Below are positions 7,945-62,849 of a stretch of DNA of 64,000 bases, piece after piece. The number at the start of each line of letters is the position of its first letter. Position 1 is the first letter of the stretch. The notes beneath the pieces are model-generated. The model had not been told where the DNA came from and did no database searches. It worked only from the letters and a program-made list of their open reading frames with translations. A program made the translations under genes and the position numbers. The DNA is from Flaccisagitta enflata. Lineage: Eukaryota. Where the stretch lies: NCBI GenBank assembly GCA_965153355.1, contig OZ231126.1, positions 21,576,001-21,640,000 of the forward strand, written 5' to 3'.

Positions 7945-9548
7945 CGCGGTAATGGTCAGGACGGTGACGAAGAAACCCACCGTGATGTTCACTCACGTGA
8001 CAAATGGCTACTCCGATACTATTGGATGCTTCAATTAACAACGACGATCGTCTCCATTGTCAGTAATATCGTAATCCTCTTTATCGTCGAAGAGGGAGTT
8101 CGTAGTAGACTTCACGATCGAGGAGATCTCCATAAACACAAAATTGGAGACGTAATTAAACTAAGTAACAAAGAAACAAAGAAACAAAGAAACAAAAAAA
8201 AACAAAGAAACATAGAAACAAAAAGATCAAAGAAACAAAGAAACAAAGAAAAAAAAGAATCAAAGAATTAAAGAAATACAGAATCAGAATTTATGAAAAC
8301 TAAAGTATGAAAAAGATATCCTGCGCGCATCAAATTGGGAAAGTAAGAGCACCATTAAATGTATAATTTGTGCATCTTTAGTATGATTCGGTATCAAGAA
8401 GTGTCTTAATTTACGCCTAGCGGTGCTGAGAAAAATTAGAGCAAAACTAAGTACACTTTTTTTTTTTATAAGAACCAAGTTTATAAGAACGTTAGGCTTC
8501 AAAACGTTAAAAATTTAAGAACATGCTAAGAACATTGGAAGGCTTCATTTTTTCAAAAATTTAAGAACATTAGGCTTAAGATCTTAAAAATTTAAGAACA
8601 TTTTTTTTTCTGTGCTTTTCTTAATCGATTGTACCTTGTCAATGGATAGACTGTGTATCTTTTATATTGAGCAAATCATGTCTCACTTTAAATAGCGTAT
8701 ATTTTTCTACTTCCATTGATCTTAAAACACTTAAAACATTTAAATCTGCTAGTTTGTTGTTTCATTGATATTTTCCTTTATTTTCTCCTTTATGTCAAAC
8801 TTGAAACTAATTAAGAACATTCTTAATTGAAGGTTAAAAATGCGTTCAAATTAAGAACAATTTAAGAACGTTCAAGCCTTGAAACTGCTCAAAATTTAAG
8901 AACATTGAAGGCTTGCTCAAAAAATGACGTTCTTATAAAAAAAAAAAAAGTGTATTCTCTGTTCTTCCGACCTTTCCTTGCCATACTAGTTACCTCGGAT
9001 TCCGCGCATCGAAATTCGGCGAAAATTCGTCTCTCATTTCCTTCTCGCTTCTCAACACGCTCCAACTTGTTTTGACTCCGTGGAAAATCGCCGATTCTGC
9101 CGTGGCCATCGACGATCGGTACTCCATGGCCGTGATGGATTTAATCGTTAAGTCACCTTTTGAATACATCTACTAACTCGCCAAACACGGGTGCCGCTTC
9201 GAACCGGCGTTGGTCGTCTTCCGCTCTTTCAGCATCGTCGCCGCCGTCATCCATTTCCTCTCCACGATCTGGGGCATCGCCGCCTCCACCATCGCCATTC
9301 ATCGCGACAACGCCTGCAATTACGGACGAAGATGTTGCTGTTGCGGCGACGATTGCTGCTGTAATCCAGTTTGTTGTTGCGGCGTTGGTGGGTGCTGCAG
9401 TTGCGGGGAGGAGTAGGGAGAGGAGGAAAGACAACGAGGACGTGGACGAGGATGCTTTGATGATGACGCCGATGTTCGATTTTTCGTCGTGAAGGCGGCG
9501 ACGGCATCGGGAGAAGTGGTTGAATTGATCCCCGGCAGACGAAAATGA
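7945..9548 (+). pseudogene. Second, stop-interrupted four-TM unit in frame with and homologous to 7471-7944
   Basis: After the TAG the frame continues RGNGQDGDEETHRDVHSRDKWLLRYYWMLQLTTTIVSIVSNIVILFIV, which matches TM1 (LIQLFSTLIAVICIVVIL). A candidate exon from 8990 reads YLGFRASKFGENSSLISFSLLNTLQLVLTPWK...EYIY*LAKHGCRFEPALVVFRSFSIVAAVIHFLSTIWGIAASTIAIHRDNACNYGRRCCCCGDDCCC...GEE*GEEERQ...IPGRRK*. The TM2 exon and its junction are unresolved. Confidence 0.55.
8452..8954. mobile_element. TA-flanked MITE family A (Tc1/mariner-like)
   Basis: TA-CACTTTTTTTTTTTATAAGAAC...GTTCTTATAAAAAAAAAAAAAGTG-TA with internal AAGAAC motifs. Confidence 0.8.
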
Positions 9549-13748: not shown

Positions 13749-14378
13749 AAACAGCGACCGCCGGTAATCACATGACCTCACTCAACTCCGAATTCCCGGC
13801 CTTTTTTCAAACACTTCTCAACGCTTTGCCTTTGGTCCCGCCCACATTTGCCTTTACTCTGCCTTGTACTGGCTTTTCATCACTTTCTTTTTTTTTCTAC
13901 TCTTTTGTTTTCTTTTTTTGTCTTTTTTTTCTGTTTTGTTTTTTTCATTTTTTTCTCTATCATTTTTTTTTCTGTCTTTAGGTCTATCTATCTGTAAATC
14001 TTGCTGAATCTAGTGATTTGTGAGAAAATATCTTCATATAATTTGTTTTGTCATATTTGTCATATTTTGTATATCTTTTAATCGTGTGCAAGCGACTCTA
14101 CACCCCGCTTTGTTCGTCTGTCCGTCGGTCTGTCTGTCCGTCGGTCTGTCTGTTGGTCTGTCACACTTTTACTTTTTTTATCAATTTTTTTTTTTCTTAA
14201 GTCTATTTTCTTAAGTCAGTTTAAGTCCTTTTAGAGTATAATAAGTCATCCTAAGTCATTCTAAGTCATTCTAAATCATTCTAAGTCATTATGTAAGTCT
14301 CGCACGCGACTTATAGGTGTTGGCCTTGTTTTGCAATTTTGCTAATCTTTCTCTTTGTCAATTCTTTATGGCTGCTGT

Positions 14379-14449
<71 letters not shown>

Positions 14450-14563
14450 GGATGGCCAGTAACATGGGCAGAGAGGCACCATATTCATTTAGATTACTCC
14501 CACTCCGACCCATCTTCCTCAGTGACTAGAAGAGGAAGAGATAAAGGGTGGGGGTTCTGAGAA

Positions 14564-15503
14564 TACACTTATTTCTTTTTTTAAGAACGTCATTTTTTGG
14601 GCAAGCCTTCAATGTTCTTAAGTTGTGAGTAGTTTCAAAGCTATAATGTTTTTAAATTATCTTTAATTTTATCACAGTTTTTAGTCGCGTGCACGAAACT
14701 CTACACCTTGCTCTGTCAGTCCGTCTGTCCGTCCGTCCGTAACATTTTTAAAATTTTTATAGTTTTTAACATCATTTAACATTTTTTAACTTGTTTTAAC
14801 ATTTTTTAACATTTTTTAACATTTTACCTTTTTTAACCTTTTTTAACCTTTTTGAATTTTTTAAACATTCTTTAGCATTTTTTAACATTTTTTAACATTT
14901 TTAACATTTTTAATATTTTTAACATTTTTTTAAACATTTTTTTAACATTTTTTAACATTTCTTAATATTTCTTAACATTTTTATCATTTTTTAATATTTC
15001 TTAGCATTTTTTTATCATTTTTTAACATATTTTAAGATTCTTTAACAGTCTTTAACATTTTTTAACATTCTTAACATTTAAACATGTTGTTGCTCTTTTG
15101 TTTGTCATTTCCAGACGTATGCGACTGTTGCCCTCTTGGGCTTGTTAACTTTCCATTAAGTACGTTCTTAATTGGTTTGAGTTTGTCGTTTAAGAAAATA
15201 AGGGAAAATGTCAATGAAACAGCAAAGCAGCAGGTTTAGAATTCTTAGTGAATGTAAATAGAGTAAAACATTAAAAAAAAAGGCGAAAAAAATACATGAT
15301 CATGCCCTGGTTCATTATTTTCAATGGAAAAATGAAACGAATATTTTTAGCATGTTCTTAAATTTTCAAAGATTTTAAGCATAACGTTGTTAAATTATTT
15401 GAAAAATGAAGGCTTCCAATATTCTTAGAATGTTTGTAAATTTTTGAGGATTTTAAACCTAACGTTCTTATAAACTTGGTTCTTATAAAAAGAAATAATT
15501 GTA
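14564..15503. mobile_element. MITE family A (reverse) interrupted by a HINE carrying a (TTTTTAACA)n array at ~14677-15148
   Basis: tacactt...aagaacgtcattttttgggcaagcc start and gttcttataaaaagaaa end; nested ttttagtcgcgtgc...cttgtt element. Confidence 0.65.
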
Positions 15504-15619
15504 ACTCGCTATATCTTAACGGACAAAATACGGAAGGAACGAGGAAAATAAGGAACAAAAGAACAAAAGAACAAGGCAACAAAAAAGCGAGGGAAATAAG
15601 AAACGAGGAAAGCAGAAAA

Positions 15620-15635
15620 AGAAAGAAAGAAAAAA

Positions 15636-15697
<62 letters not shown>

Positions 15698-15714
15698 AAA
15701 AAAGAAAAAAAGAA

Positions 15715-15794
<80 letters not shown>

Positions 15795-15798
15795 AGGA

Positions 15799-15852
<54 letters not shown>
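15620..15852. repeat. (AAAG)n microsatellite
   Basis: Direct inspection. Confidence 0.95.
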
Positions 15853-15854
<2 letters not shown>

Positions 15855-16417: not shown

Positions 16418-19283
16418 ATGCGCCTTCAATTAATCGTCCCATTGGTTTTCTTCTGCGCCTTGGCTTCGAGGTAGGTACTTATTGGTTTGTTTAGTTTAAA
16501 GTGCAATGAAACCCATGAGCGCGAGCACTGTCTCTGCAGAAATTGTTCCTCGATTACCGATCTATACATTAATAGACATTCATATCCAAGAAATATAAAT
16601 AAAACAAACTGAAACGCTTCTTTCTTCTTTGAAGAGTCGATTCCAGAGGCGTTCAAGAGGAAGCGAAGGCGATTCAGAATGAAGAAAAAGTAAGGGGGCG
16701 TCTCGCACGCACCGCAGGTTCGCTATTTTACGTAATTGATGGTAGTCTTTAGAACATAAACGTAAAGTTTTTTTTCCTTTTTCGGCGTTTTTGAGCTTTT
16801 TTAGCTCACTGCTCCTGCCCAAATGCCCTGGTGACCTTTTTAACTGGGGTAGCCGGGCATCCGGCCTTGTTATAATTCAATTTTACCAGGTTCATTGGTA
16901 ACCTTTGGTACAGGTGGATACGGTTGGAACCCAGGACCTCTAGATAGCCTTGGCGCAAGTGCACCAGGAAAGAAGAAGAAACGTATGGAAGGTGAGCTCA
17001 AACTATCTAGAAGATTTGTATTATTTAGGATATGATTTCCCCTGATATCCTGAAAAACTGAAACATTCTTGTTTTGAGATGTGCTAATTGACCTTTAAAG
17101 GCTTTATCAAATCTATGGAGGCAAACTGATGCAATTTTTACAATTTTACTGGGTTAATTGGTATCATTTGGTATAGAATTGTTTTGAAAGAAAATTTAGC
17201 ATTCTAAGAAGTAATCATCAATTATTGCAGATGACGATGGTGCACCTGGTTGGAACCCAGGACCCCTGGATAGTCTTGGCGGAGGAGTCTTAGGGAAGAA
17301 GATGAAACATATGGAAGGTGAGTTCATATCTAGGAGTTAAGTATTATTTAGGGTATAACTTCCCCTATATATCTCAGAAAACAGCAGCATTCTTATTTTG
17401 AGCTGTGCTGAAAGTCCTTCATCATATCTATGGAAACAAACTGAAGCAATTTTTACAATTTAAGTGGGTTAATTGGTATCATTTGGTAAAGAATTATTTT
17501 TATAAAAAATGTAGCATTCTAAGAAGTAATCATCAATTTTTGCAGATGACGACGGTGCACCTGGTTGGAACCCAGGACCCCTGGACAGTCTTGGCGGAGG
17601 AGTCTTAGGAAAGAAGATGAAACATATGAAAGGTGCGTTCATATCTAGGAGTTAAGTGTTATTTAGGATAAAACTTCCCCTTATATCTCAGAAAACTGAA
17701 GCATTCTTATTTTGAGCTGTGCTATTTGACCTTTATCAAATCTATGGAAGCAATTTTTACAATTTTTACAATTTTTACAATTTTTACAATTTTTACAATT
17801 TTTACAATTTAACTGGGTTAATTAGTATCATTTGGTATAGAATTGTTTTGAGAGAAAATTTAGCATTCTAAGAAGTAATCAGCAATTATTGCAGATGACG
17901 ACGGTGCACCTGGTTGGAATCCAGGACCCCTGGATAGTCTTGGCGGAGGAGTCTTAGGGAAGGCGATGAAACATATGGAAGGTGAGTTCATATGACATAT
18001 CTAGGAGTTAAGTATTATTTAGGGTATAACTCCTCCTATATATCTCAGAAAACTAAAGCATTTTTATTTTGAGCTTTGCTGATTGGCCTTCATCATATCT
18101 ATGGAAACAAACTGAAGCAATTTTTACAATTTAAGTGGATTAATTGGTATCATTTGGTAAAGAATTGTTTTGATAAAAAACATAGCATTCTAAGAAGTAA
18201 TCATCAATTATTGCAGATGACAACGGTGCACCTGGTTGGAATCCAGGACCCCTGGATAGTCTTGGCGGAGGAGTCTTAGGAAAGAAGATGAAACATATGA
18301 AAGGTGCGTTCATATCTAGGAGTTAAGTATTATTTAGGGTATAACTTCCGCTTCCCCTTATATCTCAGAAAACTGAAGCATTCTTATTTTGAGCTGTGCT
18401 ATTTGACCTGTATAAAATCTTTGGAAGCAAACTGATGCAATTTTTACAATTTCACTGGGTTAATTGGTACCATTTGGTATAGAATTGATTTGAGAGAAAA
18501 TTTAGCATTCAAAGCAGTAACCATCAATTTTTGCAGATGACGATAGTGCACCTGGTTGGAACCCAGGACCCCTGGATAGTCTTGGCGGAGGAGTCTTAGG
18601 GAAGAAGATGAAACATATGGAAGGTGAGTTCATATCTAGGAGTTAAGTATCATTTAGGGTATAACTTCTCCTATATATCTCAGAAAACTAAAGCATTCTT
18701 ATTTTGAGCCGTGCTGATTGGCCTTCATCATATCTATGGAAACAAACTGAAGCAATTTTTACAATTTAAGTGGGTTAATTGGTATCATTTGGTAAAGAAT
18801 TGTTTTATAAAAAATGTAGCATTCTAAGAAGTAATCATCAATTATTGCAGATGACGATGGTGCACCAGGTTGGAACCCAGGACCCCTGGATAGTCTTGGC
18901 GGAGGAGTCTTAGGGAAGAAGATGAAACATATGAAAGGTGCTTTCATATCTAGGAGTTAAGTATTATTTAGGGTATAACTTCCCCTTATATCTCAGAAAA
19001 CTGAAGCATTCTTATTTTGAGCTTTGCTGATTGGCCTTCATCATATCTATGGAAACAAACTAAAGCTATTTTTACAATTCAACTGGGTCAATTGGTATCA
19101 TTTGATACAGGTTTGTTTTGAAATTTTTTTTGGCATTCTAAGAAGTAATTATGAATTGTTGCAGATGACAACGATGCACCTGGTTGGAACCCAGGACCCC
19201 TGGATAGTCTTGGCGGAGGTGTACTAGGGAAGAAAATGAAACGTATGGGGACGATTTCAGCGAGAGGCTCACACGTCATATAA
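16418..19283 (+). CDS. Secreted multi-copy neuropeptide precursor (pedal peptide/orcokinin-B-like), 10 exons, 292 aa
   Basis: Exons 16418-16470, 16635-16717, 16890-16991, 17231-17317, 17546-17632, 17895-17981, 18217-18303, 18537-18623, 18851-18937, 19165-19283. All introns are GT-AG with compatible phases; 879 nt open through to TAA. Protein: MRLQLIVPLVFFCALASRVDS (signal-peptide-like) RGVQEEAKAIQNEEKVRGRLARTAGSLVTFGTGGYGWNPGPLDSLGASAPGKKKKRME, then 7 copies of DD(D/N)(G/S/D)APGWNPGPLDSLGGGVLGK(K/A)MK(H/R)M, ending GTISARGSHVI*. Gly-Lys-Lys is the classic amidation/cleavage signal. AATAAA lies at 19422. Confidence 0.88.
16890..19250 (+). repeat. Tandem array of ~315-350 bp exon+intron units (8 units) with alternating A/B intron types
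   Basis: Near-identical units of the form ttgcag|ATGACGATGGTGCACCTGGTTGGAACCCAGG...ATGGAAG|gtgagt. The repeat exons start at 17231, 17546, 17895, 18217, 18537, 18851 and 19165; a diverged first unit starts at 16890. Confidence 0.95.
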
Positions 19284-19421: not shown

Positions 19422-19427
19422 AATAAA
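19422..19427 (+). promoter_or_regulatory. Putative polyadenylation signal of the neuropeptide precursor gene
   Basis: AATAAA about 140 nt downstream of the TAA stop at 19281-19283. Confidence 0.55.
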
Positions 19428-21056
19428 CGTGTCCACCAAAGGGGGCTTTCGCCCTTTTTTTTCCTGTAACAAATTGTAACAGTTGTTAATTATCAGTTTT
19501 CTTGAGGCCCAATGAGTTGTTTTCGCGACCTTTGATATTCATTGTGGCCTTTTGGTCACATTTGATTGAAATTGTCCCGCTGGAAACCTTAACTATCCGG
19601 ATTTGGACTTTTTTCGCATCTGAAAGTGACAAAGGAAAATAACGCAATTTCGGACAAATTTGAAGGGTATGGCAAATAATATCAATTTCATCCTTTTTTT
19701 AAGTGAGAGAGCGGGCAAATTTGGGTTCGGGTAAGCCCCCATTTCACATGGAAGACAGTAAAAAAAAAATTGCGCGAAAAAATTCGAAGACGGAATAGTT
19801 ATGATGAAATCTTGAATTTCGGACAACTACGGTTTTTCTACATTTTAATTGTCCCACCCGCGTTCACTTAACATAACTGACATATATCTTTCAGAAAAAG
19901 TGTTTACTTTAACAGCAACGACCCTGCACTTGTTGGCCCAAACTAGTAAATTGTTATTGAGATGAATTTGGCTAGGTTCGATCGAGTTTTCACACTCAAA
20001 GGGGAGGAGGTTGAATTTCGGACAACTACGGTTTTTCTACAATTTTCACGCGAACCGCCAAATTCTGTTTTTGTCCACGTCGGTAATGATATCTCGTGAA
20101 CGCCTCAACCGATTCTCATGAAATTTTGTATAGAGACTCACCAAAGCTTAACCTAATACACGCGAATGAATAGAACAAAATATATTCATCTTGTCTAGCC
20201 CAAATGGCCCAGAAATGGCCCAAATTTGGCCCAAAAATGAAAAAAATTGCAACTACTCGGGTGTTTCTCATCTGATTTAGTTGAAACTTTGCGTGGGGTC
20301 TCTCAATGATAAATCTTAATGTGTGCGTTCAATTTTTGAAAATATGAGTAATCAGACCGGCCACTACTGGCCAGTACTGGCCAGAAACTGGCCAAAATTG
20401 GCCCGAAAATGATGAAAAATGGATTTTCTCAGGCAGTCTTTGCGCAACTTTGATCAAAAATGGTGAAAAATCTTAGAAAAATGGAATCTAACAAATGCAC
20501 ACTATTCATAAGGATTTTAGTCATGCAGATCGCCCCAACAGGCCAAGAACGGTTAAAAATTAAGCCAAATATGATAAAAAGTGTAACTGCTTCCGCAATC
20601 TGATTTCGATTTTGATGAAACTTGGTTTGAAGTCTCACAAAGGTCAAACTTATCACTCCATACTTGTTTAAAAAAACTTGAGTAACTCAGACCAAGGAAA
20701 AAAAAACTGTTATTTTGGCTGTTACTGACCAGTAATGAAGTGCAGCACTTGCATGATATGTTTGAAAACGCGATAAAAAATCACAACCAGCCTATGATAT
20801 CAGCGCTAATTATCTTTTTTTGTGAATTCTGACAGATCTCAAATTTTTCCTAAGAAATGATTGTGATGCGCTCGTTAGTACAGGATTATCAACAAAGATA
20901 CAAAATATTTGTATCAACATTCACATAGACGGCGGAGAATTAATCATAACACAGAAGCGACAAGGGGCGATCGAGGCTCTTTACAGAGTTGGCATTTTTT
21001 AGGGGGGGGGGAGAGAAAGCCGGCATCATATTTAAAACTCTCCGGGGACATTATTT

Positions 21057-23969
21057 TCAAAATAGGTACTCCGCAACAAGAGAAGGAAGGTCACTGTCAT
21101 GAATGTCTAAAACAGTATGTTTCTTCCCAGATATGGTGACAGCTTTTTGTTCAAAGGCAAGTGGTGGTGAGCGAACTATGTCTGCGTCGAAAGAAAGTAA
21201 CTTGGCGCCGGTTGAGGTAAAATAAGTTGGGCTTCCCTGAACTTTGGTCAAAATTTTCCCTTTGAGCAGTTCGTTGGTGCGATGTTCCGTGATGAGAATG
21301 AAGTTAAGCTCTTGCCTTTGGCCCCGCGTAATCGCTATGACTGAACCAGGTTGAGCCAAGTCTGCCATCTCATTGCGATGTCGCCCTTGACTCTGTCTAG
21401 TCTTTGAGGCAGCTTTTGCATTGGCAACAGAGCCAGAGGGACGACGTTGAACTTTTACCAGCGTAAGTGGACCCAGATCCTCTGTACGCCGACACTCAAC
21501 GAAATTGCCAAATTCACATGCGGCACAAGAGAAACAGGAGGACTCACGGACAAGAAGCTCACCAGGGACCTTGGTTGTATGCAGTTGATGGAGACCCCGT
21601 GAGCCTACAATCGGGTCCCAATCAGTCTGTGGCGCACTGACGTCAGCAGCTCTCACAACCTCACCATGGAGCGCACTGTAGAAAAACCCTTTGCTGTCCT
21701 CTCGTCCTTTGCGTGTCCTTTGCAGGTCAATGAAGTTGAGAGTCTCAATATGAGCAGCAACATTGGTGATGTTCCGAAGAGGACGGTTGAACCGCTCTTC
21801 TTTGTGCAATTCCGTCTTCCACAGAGCACCATCATGATCATGCTCTCCCTTTCCATGACCTGCGCAGGTAAAGTGAAGAGAAACCTGAGGACAGTTTGGG
21901 CACAGTGGCTCTGCAGTTTGGTGTTGTAGGCACAGATTTCGCCGAGTTTCTGCCAATGATCCGAAGACCTTCCTCGAACAGAACTGTTCCGCGCATTTGT
22001 CAGATCCAAGGATAAGTCGAGAGAATTTGAGACTAAATTGTTCCTGGATCCAGAGGACGATGCGACGAAAACAGAAGGCAGCCATGTGACGATCTTGATC
22101 TGGTCGCTCAGAGAAGAAGCCGAAATAGACTTTAACTTTCTTTAGGTTGCCCGTCTCAGGATCGATAGCAAGAAAATAGGCCACTGTTGTGAAAAGAGTT
22201 ATCAGTTTGCTATGCCAGTGTATCGACTGCACTTCCTCGAACTCCTTCAAGGCATATTTTTCGGCATAGTCGCTGAGAAGGACAAGGGTTTCAGGATCGA
22301 TGTTGATAAGGAGTTTGTCAAATTCTTTCTTTTGGTTTTCGGCAACCCATCGATGCAGAGCAAAACCGCTTAGTTTGTCTTTGAGATGAGACGCGAACTC
22401 CGCCGGCGAAGCTTCTTTCTCTTGAACTCCAAGTCGTCCAGATTCATCTTTTTCAACGGAACGGAATTTGAAAAGAGTTTCTGTGTTCCATTGTTTGGTT
22501 GTTTCATCAATCCGTTTGAGCCCACAGTTTCCACACTTTTCCTTCAGGCATTCCCTCGTTCGCTCATCAGTCGGGCAAAGAAGTGATTCAACGAATTCCA
22601 CATAATGTTCAAATGGAGGCAGGGGAAGGGAGCAGCGTTTGCAGTTGGAGATGGCGTCTTCATATGCGAATTTCACATTGGTGTGTGCCGAGCAAAGACA
22701 GACCTTCAAAATCAAATTTTAAACATTCTCTTAAAAGACTGGCAATTGATGTTTTTGCAGAAATTACTGAGTATGCTTTTGCTCATTTTAATTAATTACA
22801 CACAGCTGATTGCTGGCCGATACTTACTTTTCGATCACTATCCTTTGGTGACACGATCCACTTTGGTCGAAGTGAGGAGAAGAGACCAGTGGAAACATGT
22901 CCGTGCTTCTTGACATACTCCCGATGTAACTTGGTTACGTTGTCTGTCAAGAACCTCCGTTGATGCGTTTCCTTAATGCCATTGTTCTGTGAGAATGAGG
23001 ACTCATTCTTAGCAAACCCTTGAGTCATGGTCACGCGACCATTTACGATACTGCATCCATCAGTGAGTGTCACATCTTAAGTAATGTGCTATGCAACTAC
23101 ACCCCACTTTGTCCGTTTGTAGGTCGGTTGGTCATAATTCTTTTTATTCGCGTGCACGCGACTCTACAACCTGCTTTGTCGGTTGGTCGGGCACACTTCA
23201 CTTTTTTTTTTTATCACTTTTATTTTTTAGGTCATTTTTGGTCATTCTAAGTAATTTTAAGGCATTCTAAGCAATTCTAAGTCATTTCAAGTCACTTAAG
23301 TCATTTTTGGTCATTTTTGGTCATTTTGTCATCTTAAGTCCTTTTTGGTCATTTGAAGTCATTCTAAGTCATTCTCAGGCATTCTAAGTCATTAATAGTC
23401 ATTAATAGTCATTTCAAGTCTGTAAGTCTCGCACGCGACTTAAAGGTGTTGGCCTTGTTTATTTTTTTTTCCCGGTTTTGGCCTCACTGCTCCTGCCCAA
23501 ATCTCATGTTTCTGATCTGTGTAAGCTCAATGGCCGAACATTTTGTAATTATTAAAGCTCACCTGGACATTCACGACGTCTCGTCGTCGAGAAGTAGGCA
23601 TTGAGTTTTCTTCATAAAACTTTCGAATGAGGTCGCGTTTTTCAAAGAACTTCGTCGTTTTTCTTTTCCTACTCAATGCATTGGAGACGGCATTTGAAGT
23701 CGGAGAAATTCCGTTATCGTCGGCAATCGCTTTAGCTTCTTTAATAGCGCGACGTGCATCAGACACCATGTGCTCGCTTATTCCAAAGAGACTGTGTATT
23801 TCTCTTCGGGTAAGCGGATCGGGACCTTCCACCATAGTTTCCGCGATGAGACGTCGAAAGGCGCGCTCTTCTTTTCGCATGGTTCCTTTACCTAACCACA
23901 AGGATTTCCGGAAAAAATCATGTGTCAAGAAATGAGACCACCTTTCACTCGGCTTCTCTGCCTCTGTAC

Positions 23970-57007: not shown

Positions 57008-57935
57008 AACAAGGCCGGATACACGGCTATCCTAGTCGCGTGCGGGTGGGCAGGAGCAGTGCTGGAGAAGATCACTAGGGCATCTGGGCAAGAGCCGTAT
57101 GCTCAAAAAGCTCAAAAACGCCGAAAAAGTAATAGTCGCAAAAGCGTTAGATGGTCAGCGGTACCCGTTGCCCCTATGTGAGTGTATGATGGTGTGAGGT
57201 AGTTAGAGGGCCAGCGGCCCCGAAGGGGCCGATGACCTATGCTGTTTTTATTTGAGCTTCAAAGCTTGAGGCTGGCATATGAGCCTTGCAGCTGGGATTT
57301 GAGCCTTGGGGCTGGGAATAGAGCCTCGAGCTAATATTTGAGCTTCAAGGCTGGGATTTGAGCTTTGAGGCTAGAATTTGGGCCTCAAGACCACAATTTG
57401 GGCCTCAAGGCTGGGATTTGAGTCTGGAGACTGGGATTTGAGCCTGGTGACTGGGATTTGAGCCTCGTGACTGGGATTTGAGCCTCGTGACTGGGATTTG
57501 AGTCTCATGACTGGGATTTGAGCTTAGAGGCTTGGGTTTGAGCCATGAGGCTGGGATTTGAGCCTCATGGCTGAGATTTGAGCCTCGAGGCAGGATTTGA
57601 GCCTCAGGGCTAGATTTTGGGCCTATTGGCTGGAATTTGGGCCTCAAGGCTAGAATTTGGGCCTCAAGGGTAGAATTTGGATCTCTGGGGTGAAATATAG
57701 GCCTTACAGCTAGAATTTGGGCCTCGGGACTAGAATTTGGGCCTCCAAGCTGGGGGGGGGGTACGGACGGACGTAGGAGGAGGAGAAGGAGAAATTTCTG
57801 CATATGTGAAAGCTTAGGTCATCGGCCCCTTCAGGGCCGCTGCCCAAAAAGGGGACCGACCAACCAACCGACCGACCAACCGATTGACCGACCGACCGAC
57901 AAAGCGGGGTGTAAAGTCGCGTAGCACTTGACTAA
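57008..57935 (-). mobile_element. HINE family 2 (57131-57850) nested inside a HINE family 1 copy
   Basis: The family-1 3' end (57008-57130) and 5' end (57851-57935) are split by a complete reverse family-2 element carrying a (GAGGCTGGGATTTGAGCCT)-like array. Confidence 0.7.
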
Positions 57936-58172
57936 CAATTATTAGTCTGATAAAACAACAATAGAGCCTTCAAAAAAGAACTGGTCCTGATGTTGCGACT
58001 GTGTTGTCACAGGTAGTGGTGACCTGGCTTGGTTACACTGACCAAGTCACGGAACTGATGTGTGCTTTACTGTTGAAGGAACATCTAGACGTTATCAGTT
58101 CGAGAAAAGTATCGGCGTTATTTTTTTCAATCACAAAATCTAGTTCTTGTTTGCACAATTCGTGTTGGTTCA

Positions 58173-58396
58173 TTTTTAGTCGCGTGCTACGCGACTCTAC
58201 ACCCCGCTTTGTCGGTCCGTCGGTCCGTCCGTCGGTCCGTCCGTCGGTCCGTCCGTCCGTCCGTCCGTCACACTTTACTTTTTCGGCGTTCATGGGGTTT
58301 TTGGCTATACCGCTCCTGCCCAAATGCTCCACTGACCTCAAATATGGCCCCTGCCCACCCGCACGCGACTGGGGTAGCCGTGTATCCGGCCATGTT
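58173..58396 (+). mobile_element. HINE/DINE-1-like non-autonomous Helentron, family 1 (reference copy)
   Basis: 5' T-run plus AGTCGCGTG-CTA-CGCGACT hairpin, (GTCC/GTCG)n microsatellite, 3' CACGCGACT subTIR, GCCG-TGTATC-CGGC stem-loop and TGTT end. Related copies at ~530, 1190, 4278, 6770, 14080, 14680, 16780, 23147, 24878, 25025, 28148, 28412, 35945, 40568, 43200, 55380 and 57008. Confidence 0.75.
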
Positions 58397-62259: not shown

Positions 62260-62740
62260 ACACTTTTTTTTATAAGAACGTCATTTTTTTGGGCAAGCTT
62301 TCAATGTTTTTAAATTTTGAGCTGTTTCAAAGCTTAAATGTTGTTAGACTGTTCTTAATTTAAACAAAGTTTTTAACCTCAACTAAGAACGTTCTTAATT
62401 AGTTGAGTTTGTCATTAAGGAGAAAATGAAGGAAAATATTAATAAAACAACAAAGCAGCAGGTCTAAACATTTCAACTAAATAATAATATCAATAAAAGT
62501 AGAAAGATACAAACTATATAAAGTGAGACATGTGTCGCTGTACAGAAAAGATACAACATCTGTCTATTTACAAATAACAATTGATTAAAAAAAAGCCTAG
62601 AAAAAATGCTCTTAAATTTAAAAGATTTTAGGCCTAATGTTCTTAAATTTTTGAAGAAATGAAGCATTCCAATGTTCTTAGCATGTTCTTGAGTTTTGAT
62701 GGTTTGAAGCCTAACATTCTTATAAACTTGGTTCTTATTA
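62260..62740. mobile_element. MITE family A (reverse), with its end abutting a HINE
   Basis: acactttttttataagaacgtcatttttttgggcaagc...ggttcttatta followed by aacaaggccaacacctataagtcgcgtgc. Confidence 0.7.
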
Positions 62741-62849
62741 AACAAGGCCAACACCTATAAGTCGCGTGCAGGACAAAAATAACTGAACTGACTTGACTCC
62801 TTATTGTATCTTTTTATCGAAAATCAGACTTAAACGCAACCCAAAAAGA

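What the first reader, a model, noticed from the sequence alone, without database searches (positions are those of the whole stretch)
16418..19283. A 'satellite' that is a neuropeptide gene: one amidated peptide per tandemly duplicated exon
Seen in sequence: the ~320-bp tandem array is built from acceptor(ttgcag) + 87-nt exon + donor(gtgagt/gtgcgt) units. All repeat exons are phase 1-1 symmetric and splice to an upstream signal-peptide exon and an acidic pro-region ending RLAR. The result is a stop-free 292-aa precursor with 7 copies of ...APGWNPGPLDSLGGGVL-G-K(K/A) plus one diverged copy (...GYGWNPGPLDSLGASAP-G-KKKKR). The ORF track misses it completely. Established knowledge: G-KK directs convertase cleavage and C-terminal amidation; insect orcokinin-B peptides carry an LD(S/G)(I/L)GGGxL core and molluscan pedal peptide begins PLDS. 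Inference: this is an amidated pedal-peptide/orcokinin-like (or new) neuropeptide family whose copy number grows by whole exon+intron duplication rather than by intra-exon repeats. A repeat masker would likely hide it.
Basis: partly seen in the sequence, partly recalled or inferred. Interest (0 to 1): 0.9.

Follow-up and report, generated by a model that had tools for sequence, protein, structure and literature searches.

The report
Peptide-hormone gene hidden in tandem repeat
What looks like a 320-base satellite is a real animal-type gene in which each repeat holds one small exon for one copy of a secreted, probably amidated, orcokinin-B-like signalling peptide.

Summary
Window 16418-19283 (+) carries a signal-peptide exon, a pro-region exon, one diverged peptide exon and seven near-identical peptide exons. 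Six are 87 nt and phase 1-1; the seventh ends the ORF. All lie inside a 315-320-bp tandem array. Two contiguous ORFs from short public contigs (P0004, P0005) match the spliced product at 99 of 102 and 98 of 102 residues without gaps, across four exon junctions. So introns are removed as predicted, with one correction: exon 3 starts at 16914, not 16890, giving 284 aa rather than 292. Between copies, the 18-codon core APGWNPGPLDSLGGGVLG shows 7 of 7 synonymous changes. The core holds DSLGGG, which a cuttlefish study calls characteristic of orcokinin B-like peptides. Distant multi-copy relatives share LDSLGGGV(L/I)G.

Not shown: expression of this very copy, cleavage, amidation, or neural expression. 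P0004 and P0005 continue into two more peptide units and a VWC domain, which the window lacks. This copy may therefore be a truncated paralogue. I rate it a new variant of a known kind, of moderate interest.

The parts
16418..16470 (+). Exon 1: ATG and signal peptide (MRLQLIVPLVFFCALAS + 2 bases); donor AG|GTAGGT
   Evidence: 17 of 17 residues are identical to P0004 and P0005. Residues 3-16 have a mean Kyte-Doolittle value of 2.48, and an A-L-A motif precedes Ser17 (inspection only, no SignalP).
16635..16717 (+). Exon 2: pro-region ...VDSRGVQEEAKAIQNEEKVRGRLAR-TAG; acceptor ttgaag|, donor CAG|GTTCGC. The GTAAGG at 16690 is read through, not used as a donor.
   Evidence: ending at 16689 breaks the frame; 27 of 28 (P0004) and 28 of 28 (P0005) residues are identical, including KVRGRLARTAG.
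16914..16991 (+). Exon 3 (78 nt): diverged copy GGYGWNPGPLDSLGASAP-G-KKKKR-ME; acceptor ggtacag|, donor AAG|GTGAGC
Evidence: P0004, P0005 and P0044 (3 of 3) read RTAG-G(F/Y)G with no insertion. The 16890 start is also in frame and could be an alternative acceptor.
17231..17317 (+). Repeat exon U1, 87 nt, phase 1-1, donor GTGAGT
17546..17632 (+). Repeat exon U2, 87 nt, phase 1-1, donor GTGCGT
17895..17981 (+). Repeat exon U3, 87 nt, phase 1-1, donor GTGAGT; the only copy with G-K-A instead of G-K-K
18217..18303 (+). Repeat exon U4, 87 nt, phase 1-1, donor GTGCGT
18537..18623 (+). Repeat exon U5, 87 nt, phase 1-1, donor GTGAGT
18851..18937 (+). Repeat exon U6, 87 nt, phase 1-1, donor GTGCTT
   Evidence: The U6-U7 order (..MKHMK|DDNDAPGW..) is reproduced in P0005.
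19165..19283 (+). Last exon U7: seventh copy, no donor. Homology to the repeat ends near 19248. The ORF runs on as ..MKRMGTISARGSHVI and stops at TAA 19281-19283.
19422..19427 (+). AATAAA, a possible polyadenylation signal about 140 nt after the stop
   Evidence: sequence only; its use is not shown
16922..19248 (.). Tandem array (period 315-320; higher-order unit of two exons, about 635 bp) holding the eight peptide exons and their introns
17751..17810 (.). (CAATTTTTA)x6.7 microsatellite inside the intron before U3; it makes that intron 262 nt instead of 227-239

Best explanation
The region is a ten-exon gene of an unidentified eukaryote, with animal-type GT-AG introns of 164-262 nt. It encodes a 284-aa secretory prepropeptide.

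Shown:
- The exon joins are used in near-identical transcripts.
- The peptide core is kept unchanged by selection.
- The array grew by duplicating exon plus intron.

Inferred from established knowledge of prohormone processing:
- The signal peptide is removed, probably after A-L-A.
- Convertases cut at RLAR and at the KK / KKxK(R/H) clusters.
- A carboxypeptidase trims the basic residues.
- Peptidylglycine alpha-amidating monooxygenase turns the exposed Gly into a C-terminal amide.

The expected products are one TAGGYGWNPGPLDSLGASAP-amide and up to seven ...GWNPGPLDSLGGGVL-amide peptides. The N-termini of the seven are uncertain, because no basic site lies just before them.

The core belongs, by motif, to the orcokinin B / FLGamide type of invertebrate regulatory peptides. 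The products would act as extracellular signalling peptides on a receptor that is not known here. Because all repeat exons are phase 1-1, gaining, losing or skipping a unit changes the peptide dose without breaking the frame.
For: (1) Splicing. P0004 (294 aa, contig 1187 bp) and P0005 (271 aa, contig 902 bp) are contiguous ORFs on contigs far too short to hold the introns. They match the spliced window product at 99 of 102 and 98 of 102 residues with no gap, across the joins e1/e2, e2/e3, e3/U1 and U1/U2. A more distant paralogue or orthologue, P0044, matches 54 of 71 residues.

(2) Selection. Among the 7 copies there are 18 variable nucleotide sites. The 7 that fall in core codons 4-21 are all synonymous, where 28-31% would be expected; treating sites as independent, p is about 1.3e-4 to 3e-4. 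The other 11 variable sites lie in five spacer codons (2, 3, 23, 26, 28), each of which shows an amino-acid difference.

(3) Introns against exons. Between the two intron types, introns are 83-88% identical while the matching exons are 93-98% identical (9 cross-type pairs among U1-U6).

(4) Precursor features. There is a hydrophobic N-terminus with A-L-A. Gly followed by a basic residue comes after the core in 8 of 8 copies.

(5) Family. DS[LIM]GGG occurs 7 times in the six-frame translation of all 64 kb, always in the predicted exons. PMC9410093 (Discussion passage) names DS(L/I)GGG as characteristic of FLGamide/orcokinin B. In 17 distant proteins from public transcript or contig sets, 43 copies of the motif could be scored. 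A basic residue lies within 3 residues upstream in 33 of 43 and within 8 residues in 42 of 43. This is the layout of a multi-copy peptide precursor.
Against: - No read evidence for this copy: laying reads failed.
- P0004 and P0005 are not products of this exact sequence. They differ at 3-4 of the first 102 residues. After the U7-like unit they continue with two more peptide units and a VWC-like domain, which tblastn does not find anywhere in the window. The window copy could therefore be a truncated duplicate or a structural variant.
- Within the same intron type, the youngest duplicates have introns as similar (93-96.5%) as their exons (94-97%). Nucleotide conservation alone does not separate exon from intron there.
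- Seven of 8 copies have no basic site directly before the peptide.
- Only 6 of 43 motif copies in distant relatives have a G-[KR] amidation signal. Amidation is therefore not a conserved trait of the wider family.
- Relatives that carry Ig-like or VWC domains are unusual for neuropeptide precursors.
- Homology to named orcokinin B precursors rests on a short motif. None of the retrieved relatives with the LDSLGGG motif (P0004-P0057) bore a source name; the single named hit was a tick 'glycine rich superfamily member' (P0058, E = 2.5e-3), whose sequence I did not fetch.
Confidence: 0.65

Rival explanations
1. The window copy is a non-functional or mis-assembled derivative of the full gene seen as P0004/P0005 (peptide array plus VWC domain). 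On this reading it is a 5' partial duplicate, or a rearranged haplotype, that lost its last exons. Its array has since expanded as neutral satellite-like DNA.
For: - U7 lacks the donor that the matching unit of P0005 must have. Repeat homology stops at about 19248, and the ORF ends 11 codons into unrelated DNA.
- No exon for the two further peptide units, the VWC domain or the Ig-like domain exists in the 64 kb.
- Dispersed repeats, and a 552-aa ORF that resembles widespread eukaryotic hypothetical/DUF7869 clusters, lie on either side.
Against: - All 10 exons keep frame, splice sites and start codon. There is no stop or frameshift in 855 nt.
- All core changes among the copies are synonymous, including 3 that are private to U7.
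- A stop followed by AATAAA gives a plausible 3' end.
- Selection could, however, predate a recent truncation.
Confidence: 0.2
2. The repeats are not cut into peptides. The GWNPGPLDSLGGGVL units would be modules or linkers of secreted extracellular proteins, built by shuffling phase-1 exons together with Ig and VWC modules. Possible roles are matrix, adhesion or defence.
For: - Close relatives combine the unit with a CCN-like VWC domain. P0004 gives Pfam VWC at E = 0.1, and its best library hits are IGFBP-VWC-TSP1_CCN proteins.
- Another relative, P0044, combines it with a weak Ig-like stretch (Ig_3, E = 0.0094, below the Pfam cut-off).
- Phase 1-1 exons are the classic shuffling modules (established knowledge).
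Against: - A basic cluster follows the core in 13 of 16 copies in the close clade. Basic residues bound 42 of 43 copies in distant relatives, although their spacers are otherwise unrelated.
- The conserved part is an 10-11-residue core, as in peptide precursors.
- The window product has no folded domain at all.
Confidence: 0.12
3. It is a non-coding satellite whose open frame and splice-like motifs arise by chance.
For: The array is tandem, A+T-rich between the 'exons', and would be masked as a repeat. The antisense strand is also open over each exon for 46-65 codons.
Against: Contiguous ORFs from three independent contigs reproduce the + strand product across the joins. The core shows synonymous-only variation.
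Confidence: 0.02

Closest known systems
Orcokinin B-like peptides (So-orcokinin B / 'FLGamide' of Sepia officinalis; insect orcokinin B)
   Same: - DS(L/I)GGG hexapeptide in 7 of 8 copies.
- Several paracopies per precursor.
- Some cuttlefish members are C-terminally amidated (FLGa 3-5), and cephalopod members have N-terminal elongations (PMC9410093; Introduction and Discussion passages).
- Locusta NLDGLGGGHLLRQT and Tribolium SLDGIGGGNLVG are quoted in PMC4237046 (passage).
   Different: - A conserved N-terminal extension (A/V/G)(P/S/F)(G/S)WNPGP, with no basic site before the motif.
- The peptide ends ...GGGVL-amide.
- No orcokinin A-type sequence in the window (regex with a recalled motif).
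- The likeness is at motif level only; no statistically supported alignment to a named precursor was obtained.
- I did not see the exon layout of known orcokinin genes. Veenstra & Ida 2014 is not held, and supplements are closed.
Unnamed multi-copy precursors with (Q)LDSLGGGV(L/I)G from public transcript/contig sets (P0017, P0022, P0036, P0045-P0057)
   Same: The core LDSLGGGV(L/I)G is identical or nearly so. They are multi-copy, with basic cleavage sites between copies. P0017 and P0022 also have G-K(K/E) after the core.
   Different: Most start the peptide right after KR, RR or R, and extend it C-terminally with acidic residues instead of amidating it (G-[KR] in 6 of 43 copies). Their spacers are unrelated. 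Their gene structure and organisms are unknown.
P0004 / P0005 (near-identical transcript-like ORFs)
   Same: Signal peptide, pro-region, diverged first copy and canonical copies match at 98-99 of 102 residues, with the same exon joins.
   Different: They have fewer canonical copies (3 and 2, which short-read assembly or exon skipping could lower). They carry two extra peptide units and a C-terminal VWC-like domain, all absent from the window.
Molluscan feeding circuit-activating peptides (FCAP) and pedal peptide
   Same: FCAP GLDSLGGFNVHGGW shares LDSLGG (PMC8735849, Table 2 passage). Pedal peptide shares only PLDS (recalled; no call).
   Different: The sequences differ after the first 6 residues. 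These peptides are not amidated and have no GWNPGP extension.
Same-phase exon duplication in insect neuropeptide genes (periviscerokinin, sNPF, allatostatin CCC, DH37/47)
   Same: An extra peptide-coding exon is added without a frame change, because the flanking introns share a phase (PMC6585902, passages). The same author notes alleles that differ in paracopy number (PMC4888303, passage).
   Different: Those cases involve one or two extra exons, often alternatively spliced. Here there are seven tandem copies that form a satellite-like array with a dimeric higher-order unit.

Membership tests
Multi-copy amidated peptide-hormone/neuropeptide precursor (general class) | N-terminal signal peptide | tested here: met
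   M-R, then 14 hydrophobic residues (mean Kyte-Doolittle 2.48), then A-L-A|S. By inspection only; no signal-peptide predictor was available.
Multi-copy amidated peptide-hormone/neuropeptide precursor (general class) | Repeated peptide copies bounded by basic cleavage sites | tested here: inconclusive
   On the C-terminal side, 7 of 8 copies have KK or KKKK and 1 of 8 has K-A. On the N-terminal side, only the first copy has a site directly before it (RLAR). The other 7 are preceded by a 9-10-residue spacer (M-K-H/R-M-E/K-D-D/N-x) after the previous basic cluster.
Multi-copy amidated peptide-hormone/neuropeptide precursor (general class) | Gly directly before the basic site (amide donor) | tested here: met
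   8 of 8 copies. Amidation itself was not observed.
Multi-copy amidated peptide-hormone/neuropeptide precursor (general class) | Spliced, expressed mRNA | tested here: inconclusive
   Met for near-identical relatives (P0004, P0005: contiguous ORFs on 1187- and 902-bp contigs).
Multi-copy amidated peptide-hormone/neuropeptide precursor (general class) | Expression in neurons or endocrine cells; mature peptides detected | not testable with these tools
   Needs in situ hybridisation and peptidomics.
Orcokinin B / FLGamide type | Hexapeptide DS(L/I)GGG (PMC9410093, Discussion passage) | tested here: met
   DSLGGG in 7 of 8 copies; the eighth has DSLGAS.
Orcokinin B / FLGamide type | Peptide begins 1-2 residues before the motif, right after a basic site (as in 33 of 43 copies in distant relatives) | tested here: not met
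   The window copies carry the extension APGWNPGP without a basic residue. Cephalopod members are said to have N-terminal elongations, so this does not exclude kinship.
Orcokinin B / FLGamide type | Significant sequence homology to a named orcokinin B precursor | not tested
   None of the relatives with the LDSLGGG motif retrieved or 54 carried a name. The one named hit (P0058, a tick 'glycine rich superfamily member', E = 2.5e-3) was not fetched. No named orcokinin sequence was available to compare.
Orcokinin B / FLGamide type | In insects, shares a gene with orcokinin A through alternative splicing (PMC4237046 passage) | tested here: not met
   No orcokinin A-like motif in any of six frames of the 64 kb. 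The motif was recalled from memory, so this is a weak test, and the trait is known only for arthropods.
APGWamide | APGW followed by Gly and a basic site | tested here: not met
   APGW is followed by N-P-G-P in 7 of 7 copies.
Pedal peptide | Alignment beyond PLDS (sequence recalled) | not tested
   Only PLDS is shared with the recalled Aplysia peptide. No pedal-peptide sequence was fetched.

The most novel reading that the evidence does not exclude
A lineage-specific gene family in which a 29-codon, phase-1 'peptide exon' behaves as a free module. It amplifies together with its intron into a satellite-like array, here seven copies built from a two-exon higher-order unit. In paralogues the same exon is combined with CCN-type VWC or Ig-like domains. 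Regulatory-peptide paracopies and extracellular-domain exons would then be shuffled within one family. The peptide itself would be a new, N-terminally extended, amidated offshoot of the orcokinin B type.
Probability: 0.35. Interest if true: 0.65.

Novelty: new variant of a known kind. Interest (0 to 1): 0.5.

Why it matters
- Gene finders that rely on long ORFs would lose this gene. No repeat-exon ORF exceeds 42 codons. Repeat maskers could also remove it, though that was not tested.
- The locus shows in one place how the dose of a signalling peptide can grow by duplicating exon and intron together, with symmetric phase keeping the frame.
- It gives exact peptide sequences to look for by mass spectrometry.
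- Together with the unnamed relatives found here, it points to a widespread and almost invariant LDSLGGGV(L/I)G peptide core. That string is absent from the searched literature.
- The paralogues with VWC or Ig-like domains raise a question I could not settle: whether peptide precursors and extracellular-domain proteins exchange exons.

Tried and rejected
- **Reads.** The run search listed 6 RNA runs from 4 studies, each holding only 5-8% of the sampled words.
- **Other collections.** Scans of metagenome contigs with P0004 and with an exact 31-nt exon word found nothing. No whole genome is held. Rfam gave 0 matches in the window. The protein atlas gave no usable hit for P0004 residues 1-215. 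Earlier findings: none.
- **Neighbours.** Pfam on 10 neighbouring ORFs gave 0 credible families; only sub-threshold low-complexity hits on one ORF.
- **Promoter scan.** A bacterial promoter/terminator scan of the 5' flank does not apply to a eukaryotic gene.
- **Rejected gene models.** Exon 2 ending at the strong-looking donor 16689|GTAAGG breaks the frame, and the transcripts read through it. Exon 3 starting at 16890 is absent from 3 of 3 transcript-like proteins.
- **Rejected readings.** APGWamide is excluded because APGW is followed by N. The antisense ORFs of 46-65 aa over the exons are excluded because the proteins match the + strand.
- **Missing exons.** VWC, Ig-like or further peptide exons elsewhere in the window: none; the best outside hits have E of 0.5-9.
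- **Organism.** It could not be identified. The atlas hit of the neighbouring 552-aa ORF is spread over Cnidaria, Mollusca, Chordata and plants.
- **Literature.** 0 papers for PLDSLGGG, GWNPGP, LDSLGGG, DSLGGGVL, WNPGPLD, GGGVLamide, QLDSLG or PLDSLG. LGGGVL and SLGGGV hit only two unrelated papers. 0 papers hold both 'neuropeptide precursor' and 'VWC domain'. A search for exon-per-peptide precedents gave nothing relevant.
Full report
**1. What is in the sequence**

The region 16.9-19.25 kb is a tandem array. Tandem Repeats Finder gives 16922-19248, period 315, 7.2 copies, score 2663; the cleaner part, 17796-19248, has period 320 and 87% matches.

Each unit holds the string ttgcag|ATGAC. A pattern search finds it 7 times, at exon starts 17231, 17546, 17895, 18217, 18537, 18851 and 19165. 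In 6 of the 7 a GT donor follows exactly 87 nt later: GTGAGT three times, GTGCGT twice, GTGCTT once. The seventh unit has no donor. Repeat homology ends near 19248, and the frame runs 11 codons further to TAA at 19281-19283. An AATAAA lies at 19422-19427.

Upstream lie an ATG exon (16418-16470, donor GTAGGT) and a second exon starting at 16635. A diverged copy of the repeat exon ends at 16991.

**2. Gene model**

Ending exon 2 at the strong-looking GTAAGG (16689|16690) breaks the frame. An acceptor 24 nt further on (16914, tacag|GTGGAT) is also in frame and gives 284 aa. All repeat exons start and end in phase 1.

No stop-to-stop ORF on the + strand over a repeat exon is longer than 42 codons. 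The antisense strand is open for 46-65 codons over the same exons.

**3. Evidence that the introns are really removed**

A search of the large protein collection used the last exon as a contiguous 42-codon reference. It returned two proteins: P0004 (294 aa, on a contig of 1187 bp) and P0005 (271 aa, on a contig of 902 bp). ORFs of that length on contigs of that size must be contiguous, whereas the same coding sequence spans 2.9 kb with nine introns in the window. These contigs are therefore intron-less, as cDNA is. I could not check that they come from RNA, and a processed gene copy is the remote alternative.

The first 102 residues of the 284-aa model match P0004 at 99 of 102 and P0005 at 98 of 102, without gaps. 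That stretch crosses the joins e1/e2, e2/e3, e3/U1 and U1/U2. Both proteins read ...RLARTAG-G(F)GWNPGP..., as does the more distant P0044 (54 of 71 identical). P0005 also reproduces the window's U6-U7 order (..KKMKHMK|DDNDAPGW..).

**4. Selection on the peptide**

Across the 7 copies, the 28 full codons show 18 variable nucleotide sites. Seven of these lie in the 18 codons for APGWNPGPLDSLGGGVLG, and all 7 are synonymous, including three private to U7. The five codons with amino-acid changes (2, 3, 23, 26, 28) are all in the spacer or the basic cluster. In this core, 28-31% of single-base changes would be synonymous. Seven of seven therefore has p of about 1.3e-4 to 3e-4 if sites are independent.

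At the nucleotide level the picture is mixed. Introns fall into two alternating types: those after E-type exons with GTGAGT donors, and those after K-type exons with GTGCGT or GTGCTT donors. Within a type, introns are 84-96.5% identical. The three introns before U2, U4 and U6 are 93-96.5% identical, no more diverged than the exons that follow them (94-97%). Between types, introns are 83-88% identical while exons stay at 93-98%.

The alternation shows that the array grew mainly by duplicating a two-exon block of about 635 bp. The older comparisons show exons better kept than introns, and the youngest do not. Gene conversion cannot be excluded as a contributor.

**5. What the product looks like**

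- The N-terminus is M-R plus 14 hydrophobic residues and A-L-A|S, a signal-peptide pattern (inspection only).
- The pro-region ends in R-L-A-R, directly before the first copy, TAGGYGWNPGPLDSLGASAP-G-KKKKR.
- Seven copies of ME(D/K)D(D/N)(G/S/D)APGWNPGPLDSLGGGVL-G-KK-M-K-(H/R) follow. One copy has K-A instead of K-K.
- Gly followed by basic residues is the standard signal for convertase cleavage, carboxypeptidase trimming and amidation (established knowledge).

None of these processing steps was observed. The N-termini of copies 2-8 are uncertain, because no basic site lies next to them. The extension GWNPGP is conserved among paralogues (APGWNPGP, VPSWNPGP, GSGWNPGP, GFGWNPGP, APSWNPRP), so it is probably part of the mature peptide.

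**6. Relatives**

The HMMER scan of 1.84 billion representatives with P0004 gave 39 hits at E <= 1e-3. Most of them match only its last 60 residues. Five that I scanned are VWC proteins, three of them with the CCN-type TSP1 domain (P0006, P0008, P0009). P0004's own C-terminus reaches only E = 0.1 against Pfam VWC, but it has the ten-cysteine pattern.

The informative hits are of two kinds.

(a) A paralogue or orthologue type: P0007 with P0011 (both on contigs of 1042 bp, possibly the same one), and P0044. It has the same signal peptide and RLAR pro-region, a degenerate first copy, a weak Ig-like stretch (Ig_3, E = 0.0094, below cut-off) and one further copy.

(b) Distant multi-copy precursors whose only shared part is (Q)LDSLGGGV(L/I)G: P0017, P0022 and P0036, and after a profile search P0045-P0057. 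In 17 such proteins, 43 motif copies with full context were counted. A basic residue lies within 3 residues upstream in 33 of 43 and within 8 residues in 42 of 43. Only 6 of 43 have G-[KR] within 6 residues downstream. In the close clade (16 copies) the figures are 3, 3 and 13.

The window's clade is therefore a derived form: extended at the N-terminus and amidation-ready at the C-terminus. None of these motif-bearing relatives has a source name, and the one named hit (P0058, a tick 'glycine rich superfamily member') was not fetched. I did not pursue the origin of any of them.

**7. Comparison with what is known**

- The exact peptide strings are absent from the searched library: 0 papers for 8 strings, and two further strings hit only unrelated papers.
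- Looser strings led to PMC9410093 (passages and Introduction read). Cuttlefish 'FLGamide' peptides, for example an antigen ending FDSLGGGSFLG-amide, are renamed there as orcokinin B. The hexapeptide DS(L/I)GGG is called characteristic. Three of the six peptides are amidated, and cephalopod forms have N-terminal elongations.
- PMC4237046 (passages) calls orcokinin B an old peptide present in myriapods, copepods and remipedes. It quotes NLDGLGGGHLLRQT and SLDGIGGGNLVG.
- PMC8735849 (one table passage) lists FCAPs beginning GLDSLGG.

The window peptides meet the hexapeptide criterion in 7 of 8 copies. That motif occurs nowhere else in the six-frame translation of the 64 kb. This is a motif-level assignment, not a demonstrated homology.

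Growth by same-phase exon duplication is described for several insect neuropeptide genes (PMC6585902, passages). The same author notes that multi-copy precursors are hard to assemble and that alleles can differ in copy number (PMC4888303, passage). For that reason, the lower copy numbers in P0004 and P0005 should not be taken at face value. From memory only, the Xenopus caerulein genes also carry one peptide per small duplicated exon; I saw no paper on this.

**8. What remains open about this copy**

P0004 and P0005 go on after the U7-like unit with GGSGWNPGPLDSLGASAS..., DDSDVPSWNPGPLDSLGGGVLGKSRKR... and the VWC domain. tblastn finds none of this in the window; the best hit outside the gene has E = 2.4. 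It finds nothing of the Ig-like part of P0044 either.

The window gene is thus either a distinct paralogue with its own stop and a possible poly-A signal, or a truncated duplicate or structural variant of the VWC-bearing gene. The intact frame, start codon and splice sites, and the synonymous-only core changes, favour a working gene. Selection could predate a recent truncation, however.

**9. Surroundings**

The flanks hold microsatellites, including (AAAG)59 at 15618-15854, and short dispersed repeats. A 552-aa ORF on the minus strand at 21057-22715 has no Pfam family and resembles widespread eukaryotic hypothetical/DUF7869 clusters. No RNA family was found. The organism could not be named.

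**10. Verdict**

It is unproven on neural function and amidation, and it missed that the nearest transcripts carry a VWC domain.

The finding is a new variant of a known kind: an orcokinin B-type multi-copy peptide precursor that grew by same-phase exon duplication. I rate its interest as moderate (0.5).

Noticed in passing
window 15618-15854: (AAAG)x59 microsatellite about 560 bp upstream of the start codon. Further simple repeats lie at 14116-15079: (CT)32 and a 10-mer TAACATTTTT x35.
   Followed up: no
window 21057-22715 (-): A 552-aa uninterrupted ORF, 1.8 kb downstream on the other strand. It has no Pfam family. The protein atlas places it near 'hypothetical protein' clusters of many eukaryote phyla and a DUF7869 cluster. 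It is probably a mobile-element protein.
   Followed up: partly
window 14076-15514, with copies at 8452-8959, 23141-23460, 57847-58283 and 62264-62793: Short dispersed repeats (about 50-150 bp, 73-88% identical) lie on both sides of the gene and elsewhere in the window. Their type was not determined.
   Followed up: no
The acceptor of the diverged exon therefore seems to be made from former intron sequence after an internal deletion.
   Followed up: partly
P0044, P0007/P0011 (not in the window): A related gene has the same signal peptide and RLAR pro-region but carries an Ig-like stretch between two peptide units. P0007 ends in a frame-shifted reading of the peptide unit and P0011 continues it; both sit on contigs of 1042 bp, possibly the same one.
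   Followed up: partly
window 19440-19470: A G+C-rich hairpin-like string followed by a run of T (GGGGGCTTTCGCCC + T8) lies just after the AATAAA. Its meaning is unknown.
   Followed up: no
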